A stretch of 64,000 bases of DNA from Macrostomum lignano (Eukaryota). The stretch is from positions 62,001 to 126,000 of the forward strand of contig NIVC01000740.1 in assembly GCA_002269645.1 (NCBI GenBank). Reading direction: 5' to 3'. Both the position numbers and the translations under genes were made by a program. Below the pieces are notes generated by a model. It had not been told where the DNA came from, made no database searches, and saw only the letters and a program-made list of their open reading frames with translations. Shown piece by piece: positions 19,480 to 20,616 of the stretch (its first letter is position 1; each line of letters opens with the position of its first letter).

Positions 19480-20616
19480 ATGGACGATAGCCTGGACGAT
19501 TTTATTCAAGAATTATTAGGCTTAAATGAGACCATGGAGGTGGAAGCTGCGCCGGAAGCTGCACCGCCGGCAGATCAGCCACCAGCGCCGCCAGCTCGGC
19601 CTGAGAATGCGCCACCGGCAGATCCACCAGCGCCGCCAGCTCGGCCTGAGAATGCGCCACCGGCAGATCCACCAGCGCCGCCAGCTCGGCCTGAGCTCCC
19701 GCCACCAGCAGCCCAACCGACAGCTCCAGTGGCAGCACCACAACCGGGACCATCAGCAGCTCAGCCCGAGGGAGCTGCGGCGAATCAGCCAGTGGCAGCC
19801 TTAGAGGAGGCGCCGCTGAGGCTACCGACAAGGCCCAGAGCCTTGCCCGGAACCAGCAAGAGACCACCGACGATCGAGCAACCGGCAGATCGAGAGGTAA
19901 TTCCGGCTAAACGAGCTGCAATCATGGAAGCTCAGGCGAGGGCACCCATCAAATCGGTGGTGATAAAATCCTGTGCTGAGGAAGGGAGGCGCACTGTACA
20001 GCTAGTGGCGCCACACCGTCCATCAACACGGCGCCCACTGCCTCCACCTCGCGAACAGCCGCCGCCGCCGCCTCGCCGTCAACCATCGCCGCCTCGTCAA
20101 CAGCAGCCTCCGCCGCCGCTTCGTCAACAGCAGCCTCCGCCGCCGCCTCGCCGTCAGCCATCGCCGCCTCGTCAACAGCAGCCTCCGCCGCCGCCCCGTC
20201 AACAGCAACAGCCCTGTCGACAGCCCCTGCAACAATTGCCGCCCCCGCCGCAGCTGCAGCAACCGGCAAGGGATTATCAGCAGGCCGCTCTAGATCTAAT
20301 CGCGATGCACGGCGCACCGCTAGAGCGTACCACACATGGTCTGCGAAGGTATTTGCTGCAAATCGCTCACCTACGGTTAGACCAAGCGTTGCCGCAACGC
20401 GCTTACGTTTGGCCAGGGTTGAGGCAGCTGCGAGCCCGCTACTCCCGCGAGGAGGCGATCATCCTGCTGCGTCACACCGTCGGCCAGGTTCGCAGCGACA
20501 TCGATGCTGCTCGCCAGCCGATCCAGCGCCAACTTTTGGGCATCGAGATTCGTTGGCTCTTTTCGCAGCTGGGTTGGCCGGCCTTCCGCGACCTGCCTCG
20601 TGACTGCAACTTCTGA
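19480..20616 (+). CDS. Extra ORF (378 aa) of LTR element: acidic N-terminal helix, Pro/Ala and Pro/Gln/Arg repeats, ~115-aa unique helical C-terminal domain
   Basis: ATG-initiated, intact, GC-rich ORF between the pol remnant and the PPT; no signal peptide or TM segment is evident. Confidence 0.8.
   Translation: MDDSLDDFIQELLGLNETMEVEAAPEAAPPADQPPAPPARPENAPPADPPAPPARPENAPPADPPAPPARPELPPPAAQPTAPVAAPQPGPSAAQPEGAAANQPVAALEEAPLRLPTRPRALPGTSKRPPTIEQPADREVIPAKRAAIMEAQARAPIKSVVIKSCAEEGRRTVQLVAPHRPSTRRPLPPPREQPPPPPRRQPSPPRQQQPPPPLRQQQPPPPPRRQPSPPRQQQPPPPPRQQQQPCRQPLQQLPPPPQLQQPARDYQQAALDLIAMHGAPLERTTHGLRRYLLQIAHLRLDQALPQRAYVWPGLRQLRARYSREEAIILLRHTVGQVRSDIDAARQPIQRQLLGIEIRWLFSQLGWPAFRDLPRDCNF

What the first reader, a model, noticed from the sequence alone, without database searches (positions are those of the whole stretch)
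19480..20616. Pol-less Gypsy element carries an intact, unrecognised extra ORF
Seen: inside a bounded LTR element whose pol is deleted or full of stops and whose gag is shortened, this 378-aa GC-rich ORF is fully open from ATG to TGA. It has an acidic amphipathic start (MDDSLDDFIQELLGL), 15-aa PPADPPAPPARPENA repeats, RRQPSPPRQQQ repeats and a non-repetitive, probably helical C-terminal domain (DYQQAALDLIAMHGAP...WPAFRDLPRDCNF). It sits in the env position but has no signal peptide or TM helix. A CCAAT motif lies upstream (~19309), so it may have its own promoter. Known: some Gypsy lineages carry extra ORFs of unknown function. Inference: this is an accessory or cargo gene kept intact and spread by a non-autonomous LTR family, possibly a transcriptional regulator, scaffold or anti-silencing factor.
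Basis: partly seen in the sequence, partly recalled or inferred. Interest (0 to 1): 0.75.

Follow-up and report, generated by a model that had tools for sequence, protein, structure and literature searches.

The report
Flatworm retrotransposon's non-envelope accessory regulator gene
A young LTR retrotransposon with no working pol gene, likely from the flatworm Macrostomum, carries an intact 378-amino-acid gene with no membrane segment and relatives only in that worm or unnamed assemblies; it likely has its own promoter and is predicted to regulate the element from the nucleus.

Summary
19480-20616 is a fully open 378-codon ORF inside a young LTR element (764-nt LTRs, 2 mismatches; CGAG target duplication). 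The element has a short gag-like ORF and a stop-riddled middle region. The ORF is a real gene. It has five relatives at 34-53% identity, four named Macrostomum lignano and one unnamed. They conserve an N-terminal acidic helix, short basic motifs and a C-terminal domain that folds as a five-helix bundle (pLDDT 84). It is not env: there is no hydrophobic segment. No Pfam, PDB or significant fold match was found. About 80 nt of upstream sequence (CCAAT box, MYB-like site, initiator-like motif) is shared with a relative whose protein is only ~41% identical, which points to an internal promoter. Best reading (0.4): an element-borne nuclear regulator with an acidic activation helix, working like foamy-virus Tas or maize Grande gene23, with no homology shown to either. 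Not shown: expression of this copy, the start site, function, the Gypsy clade, or that the relatives lie in LTR elements. Relatives are listed as non-specific in body-region RNA-seq. Extra ORFs in LTR elements are well known; this protein family appears new.

The parts
14639..14642 (.). left target-site duplication CGAG
   Evidence: same 4 nt follow the 3' LTR
14643..16613 (+). 5' LTR (TG...CA), split by an inserted MITE
   Evidence: 141/141 and 625/627 identity to the 3' LTR
14784..15987 (.). MITE inserted in the 5' LTR after integration; ~350-nt terminal inverted repeats, CAA duplication
   Evidence: TIR arms 98.6% identical, absent from the 3' LTR
16618..16628 (+). primer-binding-site-like sequence TGGTGGCAGCG (tRNA-Leu complement, recalled)
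   Evidence: starts 5 nt after the LTR end; tRNA assignment is from memory and untested
16766..17353 (+). short gag-like ORF, 195 aa, with a degenerate zinc-knuckle-like CxxC
   Evidence: open frame; no significant Pfam, PDB or homologue hit; gag assignment by position and eye
17851..19079 (+). decayed pol-like region with stops in all three frames; open ~130-codon acidic tail containing YNLRPR
   Evidence: six-frame reading; no Pfam hit; protease/RT-start/integrase-tail likeness by eye only
19084..19245 (+). A-rich spacer (GC 0.23) with branch-point-like TACTAAC at 19219
19281..19390 (+). candidate internal promoter: RFX-like half sites 19281/19292, MYB-like sites 19296(+)/19326(-), NF-Y-type CCAAT 19308-19312, initiator-like CCAGTTT 19371-19377
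   Evidence: only NF-Y consensus in the element; 19311-19389 matches the annotated N-terminal extension of P0003 at 10/12 and 12/16 residues, then drops to 2/29; motif consensuses recalled
19480..19521 (+). N-terminal acidic amphipathic helix (aa 1-14), predicted activation/partner-binding motif
   Evidence: DDFIQELL / DMFIRSL / DDFLKALL in P0001, P0007, P0003; first 30 aa net charge -9
19795..20034 (+). basic middle segment (aa 106-185) with conserved EAPLRxPTRP, KRP and K[RK]AA motifs; predicted nuclear-localisation/binding motifs
   Evidence: 20 of 80 positions identical in both P0007 and P0003, versus 3 of 85 and 4 of 77 in the flanking repeat linkers
20266..20613 (+). C-terminal five-helix domain (aa 263-378), Arg-rich, ends WPxF..LP..CNF
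   Evidence: AlphaFold2 with a 6-sequence alignment: pLDDT 84, pTM 0.79; 37 of 116 positions identical in both full-length relatives
19480..20616 (+). the extra ORF, 378 aa
21019..21030 (+). polypurine tract before the 3' LTR
21032..21795 (+). 3' LTR, 764 nt
21796..21799 (.). right target-site duplication CGAG

Best explanation
The ORF is an intact, selected, non-envelope gene carried in the 3' part of a young pol-less LTR retrotransposon; it is likely transcribed from its own internal promoter and is predicted to encode a nuclear trans-regulator that boosts transcription of its LTR family. Shown: the element's boundaries, the open frame, a family of diverged relatives, no membrane segment, and an upstream segment shared with one relative. 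Predicted: a stable five-helix C-terminal domain. Inferred: the CCAAT/MYB-like/initiator-like segment starts an mRNA near 19373, whose first ATG is 19480; the basic KRP...KRAA motifs take the protein to the nucleus; the Arg-rich helical domain anchors it to LTR DNA, chromatin or a DNA-bound host factor; and the acidic N-terminal helix recruits coactivators. A pol-less copy would keep such a gene because more of its own RNA gets made and is then copied by helper elements.
For: Real gene: 5 representatives pass E<=0.001 among 1.84 billion proteins, at 34-53% identity; 4 of the 5 clusters are named M. lignano and one is Logan-only. Changed residues are conservative (BLOSUM>0 in 42% for P0002 and P0003, 29-30% for P0004/6/8) against 20-23% under an analytic neutral model. 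Repeat expansions keep frame. Confidence rose from pLDDT 48 for a single sequence to 84 with 6 sequences. The ORF is open while the neighbouring pol-like region has 13 stops in 132 codons of its best-looking frame. Mobile family: the identical P0003 protein is annotated under two different gene-cluster names, and names are shared only by transcripts clustered at 95% (PMC5730564 passages). Promoter: conservation with P0003 covers CCAAT to about 15 nt past the initiator-like motif, in two different frames, then stops; the CCAAT is 65 nt upstream of the initiator A; there is no ATG between 19367 and 19479. The Mlig gene models of the relatives come from an RNA-seq-built annotation. Regulator anatomy: acidic helix, basic motifs and a basic domain (pI 9.8-10.7 in 4 of 5 members). 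Precedent for this logic: foamy-virus Tas (internal promoter, acidic activation domain; PMC3798896 passages), Grande gene23 (own promoter, nuclear; PMC7264820 passages), and internal env promoters in Oikopleura Tor (PMC4402516 passages).
Against: No DNA-binding fold was recognised. The best structural matches are HEAT/MIF4G-like RNA-metabolism domains (Gle1 CTD, Z 9.3, rmsd 3.1, 119 aligned), below the ~13 noise level for helical bundles. The P0002 domain has net charge 0, and P0004 and P0006/8 lack the acidic helix or middle motifs. The 9aaTAD pattern is unspecific, with 5-7 matches in P0007 and P0003. The promoter motifs were chosen after looking (shuffle frequencies: NF-Y 0.026, MYB pair 0.086, RFX pair 0.001), and initiator-like motifs occur 4 times in 240 nt. 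P0003's annotated ORF begins at the ATG inside the CCAAT box, so its transcript model starts upstream of the box, which fits LTR read-through or splicing as well. Splice-acceptor-like sites at 19249 and 19382 offer other routes. Five listed Mlig entries of the relatives' clusters are 'Non-Specific' in body-region RNA-seq, with no neoblast or germline label, which does not support the gonad-type promoter the RFX/MYB/NF-Y motifs suggest. No relative could be placed in an LTR element directly.
Confidence: 0.4

Rival explanations
1. Element-borne RNA-level regulator, like Rev or C. elegans CERV: the helical domain binds element RNA or a DEAD-box helicase and promotes export or translation of unspliced genomic RNA.
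For: The top fold matches cluster among MIF4G/MA3/HEAT domains of mRNA export and translation: Gle1 CTD Z 8.5-9.3, Pdcd4 Z 7.6, eIF4G/DAP5/NOT1 Z 6.0-6.6. The surface is Arg-rich. An animal LTR precedent exists (PMC10309623 abstract). The element has intron-like AT-rich spacers and splice-like signals.
Against: All Z values are below the stated helical-bundle noise level, at 6-18% identity, and unrelated bundles score the same. The conserved acidic helix did not form a conserved leucine-rich export signal by eye.
Confidence: 0.2
2. Anti-silencing or host-factor adaptor: the short motifs and helical domain bind or divert a host silencing factor (piRNA or chromatin machinery), protecting the family in trans.
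For: Modular motif-plus-domain anatomy with rapid divergence (34-53% identity within one host species), as expected in a host conflict (inference).
Against: No direct evidence and no similarity to known anti-silencing proteins in Pfam or PDB.
Confidence: 0.15
3. Captured host gene riding as a passenger: a Macrostomum-specific host family (e.g. the short Mlig026206 type) donated promoter plus gene, and it does nothing for the element.
For: GC 0.64, unlike the A-rich rest of the element. P0006/P0008 are short, the most divergent (32-34%) and named as a g1/g2 pair, as duplicated host loci would be. The genomic context of the relatives could not be seen.
Against: The ORF has no introns. It stayed open with conservative change while the pol-like region decayed. 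An identical relative sits under two cluster names. The upstream segment has high contig depth, like the shared parts of the element (weak).
Confidence: 0.12
4. The gene is functional only in related, possibly autonomous, elements; this pol-less copy picked up the 3' cassette recently by recombination and it is open only because it is young.
For: The LTRs differ at 2 of 764 sites. Contig depth is patchy along the element, and the two A-rich spacers resemble each other, as a mosaic would give. The 5' LTR of this copy carries a MITE.
Against: Spacers, ORF and 3' UTR show similar depth (medians 99-129), as if one sub-family carried them together. The ORF pieces shown have no frameshifts.
Confidence: 0.1
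5. Envelope-like or fusogenic protein, because it occupies the env position.
For: Position between the pol remnant and the 3' LTR only.
Against: No hydrophobic segment in any of 6 family members tested (maximum KD19 0.22-0.90), and 0-3 cysteines.
Confidence: 0.02

Closest known systems
Maize Grande gene23 and Retand TRP28 ORFs (plant Ty3/Gypsy; PMC7264820 passages, PMC11963269 abstract)
   Same: Non-env extra ORF between pol and the 3' LTR; own promoter and nuclear product reported for gene23; some Retand elements are non-autonomous; a regulatory role is proposed but unproven.
   Different: Those ORFs are antisense and in plants; this one is sense and in an animal. No Pfam match to TRP28 or any other family.
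Foamy-virus Tas/Bel1 (PMC3798896 passages)
   Same: Accessory gene just upstream of the 3' LTR, internal promoter, acidic activation domain plus a separate binding domain, low sequence conservation between relatives.
   Different: Tas is in a complete retrovirus with env and its function is proven. No sequence or fold similarity was found here, and the function here is only predicted.
Oikopleura Tor3b/4b env with internal promoter (PMC4402516 passages)
   Same: An animal LTR retrotransposon whose third ORF is transcribed from a promoter after pol.
   Different: The Tor product is a transmembrane glycoprotein; this protein has no membrane segment.
Bdelloid rotifer LTR ORF3s, including non-autonomous TelKA2n (PMC5408684 passages)
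   Same: [quoted passage not shown]
   Different: Those ORF3s are env-like, GDSL esterase, DEDDy nuclease, coiled-coil or TM types; none matches this protein.
C. elegans Cer1 CERV (PMC10309623 abstract)
   Same: A novel nuclear regulatory protein encoded by an animal LTR retrotransposon.
   Different: CERV comes from a spliced mRNA of a gag-pol element and exports genomic RNA; no homology was tested directly or seen in searches.

Membership tests
LTR retrotransposon (any) | Two near-identical direct LTRs with TG...CA ends | tested here: met
   764 nt, 2 mismatches
LTR retrotransposon (any) | Target-site duplication | tested here: met
   CGAG on both sides
LTR retrotransposon (any) | Primer-binding site and polypurine tract | tested here: met
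   TGG-starting stretch at 16618 and purine tract 21019-21030; the tRNA identity is recalled, not tested
Ty3/Gypsy superfamily | RT sequence grouping with Ty3/Gypsy | not testable with these tools
   No RT core is present in this copy and no host genome was held
Ty3/Gypsy superfamily | Domain order PR-RT-RH-IN | tested here: inconclusive
   Protease-end, RT-start and integrase-tail likenesses in that order are by eye only; 0 Pfam families. Prior: 129 of 137 M. lignano families are Ty3/Mdg4
Ty3/Gypsy superfamily | Gag with capsid domain and CCHC knuckle | tested here: inconclusive
   195-aa ORF in gag position with CxxC but no regular CCHC spacing; no significant hit
Env / env-like ORF3 | Signal peptide and transmembrane anchor | tested here: not met
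   Maximum 19-residue hydropathy 0.61; first 30 aa net charge -9
Env / env-like ORF3 | Homology to a viral fusion glycoprotein | tested here: inconclusive
   No hit in Pfam, PDB or viral fold searches; absence from a list does not exclude
Foamy-virus Tas | Sequence homology to Tas/Bel1 | tested here: inconclusive
   No Pfam family matched; no direct pairwise comparison was run
Foamy-virus Tas | Expression from an internal promoter | tested here: inconclusive
   Conserved CCAAT/initiator-like segment, but no start site mapped; contig runs cannot show starts
Foamy-virus Tas | Acidic activation domain and DNA binding to LTR response elements | not testable with these tools
   Acidic helix is conserved in 3 full-length members; activity needs an assay
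MIF4G/MA3 (HEAT-like) domains | Significant structural or profile match | tested here: inconclusive
   Best Z 9.3, rmsd 3.1, 119 aligned, 10% identity to Gle1 CTD, under the helical noise level; no Pfam hit
Plant TRP28/gene23 aORFs | Antisense orientation to gag-pol | tested here: not met
   ORF is on the same strand as the gag-like ORF

The most novel reading that the evidence does not exclude
A Macrostomum LTR retrotransposon lineage independently evolved complex-retrovirus-style regulation: an internal promoter driving a trans-activator of a new protein family, which has radiated into several subtypes. Pol-less parasites keep the gene because it lets them switch on their own and their helpers' LTRs.
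Probability: 0.2. Interest if true: 0.75.

Novelty: new variant of a known kind. Interest (0 to 1): 0.5.

Why it matters
Most extra ORFs of LTR retrotransposons have no known function, and in animals the studied ones are mostly env-like or enzymes. This is a new soluble protein family with a compact, confidently predicted domain and a candidate internal promoter, in an animal with established transgenesis and LTR reporter assays (PMC12801592). That makes a standing question directly testable: what non-env accessory genes do, and why pol-less elements keep them. The published M. lignano survey started from RT, and the genome paper's LTRharvest run required target duplications of at least 5 nt. 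By inference, both would skip an RT-less element with a 4-nt duplication. The relatives are annotated as hypothetical host genes.

Tried and rejected
Host genome: none held, so no copy census, dN/dS or context of relatives was possible. Word-based homologue search with P0001 aa 255-378: 0 of 159 candidates. Profile search of longer proteins returned only P0002 and P0003 among 8000 scored. Gag-like ORF: 0 of 1114 candidates and no PDB hit. Pfam, NCBIfam and PDB sequence searches of the family: nothing significant; the best was NRD1 CID at E 0.13. ESM Atlas: no feature hit; structure rows all under the naming bar. Foldseek: best E 0.39 in PDB and 0.73 in the viral library; the first, low-confidence model gave nothing. 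No capsid structure appeared in the top 50 rows, which does not exclude one; the domain does not match the element's own gag-like ORF. Related loci: 0 of 294 metagenome and 0 of 58 viral stretches; L001 was a chance 8-residue-type match in an unrelated enzyme gene. Rfam: 0 matches. Expression: no RNA holder listed on record. Three runs guessed to be RNA have contigs over parts of the ORF, but also over spacers and the pol remnant; no silent control was laid, and contigs cannot show starts, strand or level. No splice-type joint appeared among the 15 of 33 joints shown. The variant table showed 40 of 341 places and none inside the ORF, so no synonymous/non-synonymous count was possible. Gene ids of relatives were absent from the supplements of PMC12801592, PMC5730564, PMC5816591 and PMC12896417; PMC8629364 had none readable. 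Literature searches listed no paper describing such an ORF in Macrostomum, and PMC12801592 has 0 occurrences of 'ORF', 'envelope' or 'non-autonomous'. Its ref. 16, Repbase/Dfam entries and bioRxiv supplements were not seen and may bear on novelty. A PBS motif search of papers was uninformative. Earlier scan notes: none. A testis-specific promoter was considered from the RFX/MYB/NF-Y motifs and set aside. A conserved nuclear export signal in the acidic helix was rejected by eye.

Full report
Observation. It is GC-rich (0.64) inside an otherwise A-rich element. The other five frames carry 5-17 stops. 9 of 5000 random sequences with the same dinucleotide model were fully open in any frame; the C-terminal 118 codons alone were open in 1111 of 5000. 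All 8 tandem-repeat rows in the ORF have periods divisible by three, unlike those in the LTR, leader and pol-like region.

The element. The 5' LTR runs 14643-16613 and the 3' LTR 21032-21795, with TG...CA ends, 2 mismatches over 764 nt and CGAG on both flanks, so the insertion is young. A 1.2-kb MITE with ~350-nt inverted ends and a CAA duplication sits in the 5' LTR only, so it arrived later. A PBS-like stretch starts at 16618 and a purine tract ends at 21030. Between them lie a 195-codon gag-like ORF, an AT-rich spacer, a ~1.2-kb region with stops in every frame, a second A-rich spacer, a 234-nt segment of 50% GC, the ORF and an AT-rich 3' UTR. No Pfam family matched the gag-like or pol-like parts, even read with X at stops. 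By eye the middle region resembles the end of a protease, the start of RT and an integrase tail, in Gypsy order; these motifs are recalled. 129 of 137 published M. lignano LTR families are Ty3/Mdg4 (PMC12801592 supplement 1). 'Non-autonomous LTR element' is shown; 'Gypsy' is likely but untested.

The protein family. phmmer with the C-terminal 118 aa over 1.84 billion representatives found 5 proteins at E<=0.001, with 34-53% identity. Four of the five clusters are named Macrostomum lignano hypothetical proteins and one is Logan-only, so the window is most likely from that worm (inference). The full-length members keep the same plan: an acidic amphipathic helix at the start, EAPLRxPTRP, KRP and K[RK]AA motifs in a basic middle part, and a C-terminal domain ending WP....P..CNF. 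Positions identical in both full-length relatives number 5 of 20, 3 of 85, 20 of 80, 4 of 77 and 37 of 116 along the five segments, so conservation avoids the repeat linkers. Changed residues in the domain score BLOSUM>0 in 42% (P0002, P0003) and 29-30% (P0004, P0006, P0008) of cases, against 20-23% expected without selection. AlphaFold2 gave pLDDT 48 for the lone sequence and 84 (pTM 0.79, five helices) with six sequences. No member has a hydrophobic segment, so env is rejected. No sequence library named the domain. Fold searches gave only sub-threshold helical matches, led by the Gle1 CTD (Z 9.3, rmsd 3.1, 119 aligned, 10% identity), with other MIF4G/MA3 domains and unrelated bundles close behind.

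The upstream segment. The annotated N-terminal extension of P0003 matches window 19311-19389 at 10 of 12 and 12 of 16 residues, in two different frames of the window, and then falls to 2 of 29. The window has stops before 19480 in the frame of the ORF. This is DNA-level conservation far above the ~41% identity of the two proteins. The stretch holds the element's only NF-Y-type CCAAT consensus, a MYB-like site and an initiator-like motif 65 nt downstream of the CCAAT; two RFX-like half sites and a second MYB-like site lie just upstream (consensuses recalled, chosen post hoc). A start near 19373 would make 19480 the first ATG. A start further upstream would meet an ATG inside the CCAAT box that opens a 59-codon out-of-frame ORF overlapping the main start. 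Against the promoter reading: P0003's transcript model includes the CCAAT box, initiator-like motifs are common, and acceptor-like sites exist at 19249 and 19382.

Other copies and expression. 20 of 24 listed runs hold the stretch or part of it, all under one species label; none is on record as RNA. In the DNA-type contig run, median depth was 1461 over gag, 805 over the pol-like region, 803 over the upstream bin, and 99-129 over spacers, ORF and 3' UTR. The tool warns that such depth is no copy number and cannot rank parts, so this is only a hint: this ORF version belongs to a sub-family, while the upstream segment is shared more widely. ORF pieces shown had 0-4 differences and no gaps, except one with 15 gap letters. 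None of the 12 of 67 indels shown lay in the ORF, and the tables are cut. Expression of this copy is unresolved. The relatives' Mlig models come from an RNA-seq-built annotation (PMC5730564 passages). Five entries of their clusters are 'Non-Specific' by body region with no stem-cell or germline label (PMC7336406 supplement rows; one entry is the g1 sibling of P0003's g2 model, and I could not tell whether low counts default to this class). The identical P0003 protein stands under two cluster names, as dispersed mobile copies would (inference). No relative could be placed in an LTR element directly.

Mechanism. I commit to an element-borne nuclear trans-regulator made from an internal promoter (0.4). 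That the gene is real and selected is well supported (about 0.85). The promoter is likely (about 0.6). The activator role rests on anatomy: acidic helix, basic motifs and a basic folded domain. Rivals are an RNA export or translation factor (0.2), an anti-silencing adaptor (0.15), a captured host passenger (0.12), a recently recombined cassette selected only in relatives (0.1) and env (0.02).

Comparison and novelty. Extra ORFs before the 3' LTR are a known kind: Grande gene23 and Retand TRP28 in plants (PMC7264820 passages; PMC11963269 abstract), rotifer ORF3s including one in a non-autonomous family (PMC5408684 passages), Tor env with an internal promoter (PMC4402516 passages) and CERV (PMC10309623 abstract). 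The predicted logic is closest to foamy-virus Tas (PMC3798896 passages). It may work like these; no homology to any is shown. Searches listed no description of this ORF. The M. lignano LTR paper (part 1 of 6, passages, supplement 1 and a search of its 5 supplements) has no hits for 'ORF', 'envelope' or 'non-autonomous'. Its predecessor and repeat databases were not seen. Verdict: a new variant of a known kind, with a new protein family; interest 0.5.

Noticed in passing
window 14784-15987: A 1.2-kb MITE with ~350-nt terminal inverted repeats (98.6% identical, GGG ends) and a 3-nt CAA duplication sits in the 5' LTR only; PIF/Harbinger-like from recall. It may disturb this copy's LTR promoter.
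   Followed up: partly
window 19311-19490: An ATG inside the CCAAT box opens a 59-codon frame that overlaps the main start out of frame; in relative P0003 the same ATG is annotated in frame with the protein.
   Followed up: partly
window 19219-19249 and 19375-19382: Branch-point-like TACTAAC followed by TGCAG, and a TTTTTCAG acceptor-like site, lie upstream of the ORF; cis- or trans-splicing are possible alternative routes to an mRNA.
   Followed up: partly
window 17390-17485 and 19101-19199: The A-rich spacers after the gag-like ORF and after the pol-like region align weakly with each other, hinting at duplication or recombination inside the element.
   Followed up: partly
window 16222-16283, 16397-16472, 16634-16717: Tandem arrays in the LTR (19-21 nt x3; 21 nt x3.6) and just after the PBS (23 nt x3.7); the LTR arrays vary among contigs and are candidate enhancer or response elements.
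   Followed up: no
window 45587-46939 (-): Intact 450-aa ORF with DUF3504 (E 1.9e-23) and QRICH1 domains; from recall this is Crypton-like tyrosine-recombinase territory.
   Followed up: partly
window 11359-12375 (+): 338-aa ORF with no significant Pfam match, a Cys-containing part and a repeated basic tail, next to a 575-N run at 10709-11283.
   Followed up: partly
P0005 residues 846-921: A 53%-identical fragment of the same domain lies inside a 1495-aa gene model that also has an RNase H-like part and leucine-rich repeats; probably a chimeric model over a transposon cluster.
   Followed up: partly
window 29596-30729 (+): 377-aa ORF ending in a CCCH-zinc-finger-like start, probably a host exon (by eye).
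   Followed up: no
window 34979-37438, 40848-41525, 1635-3875: Several long ORFs here are by-products of minisatellite arrays.
   Followed up: no
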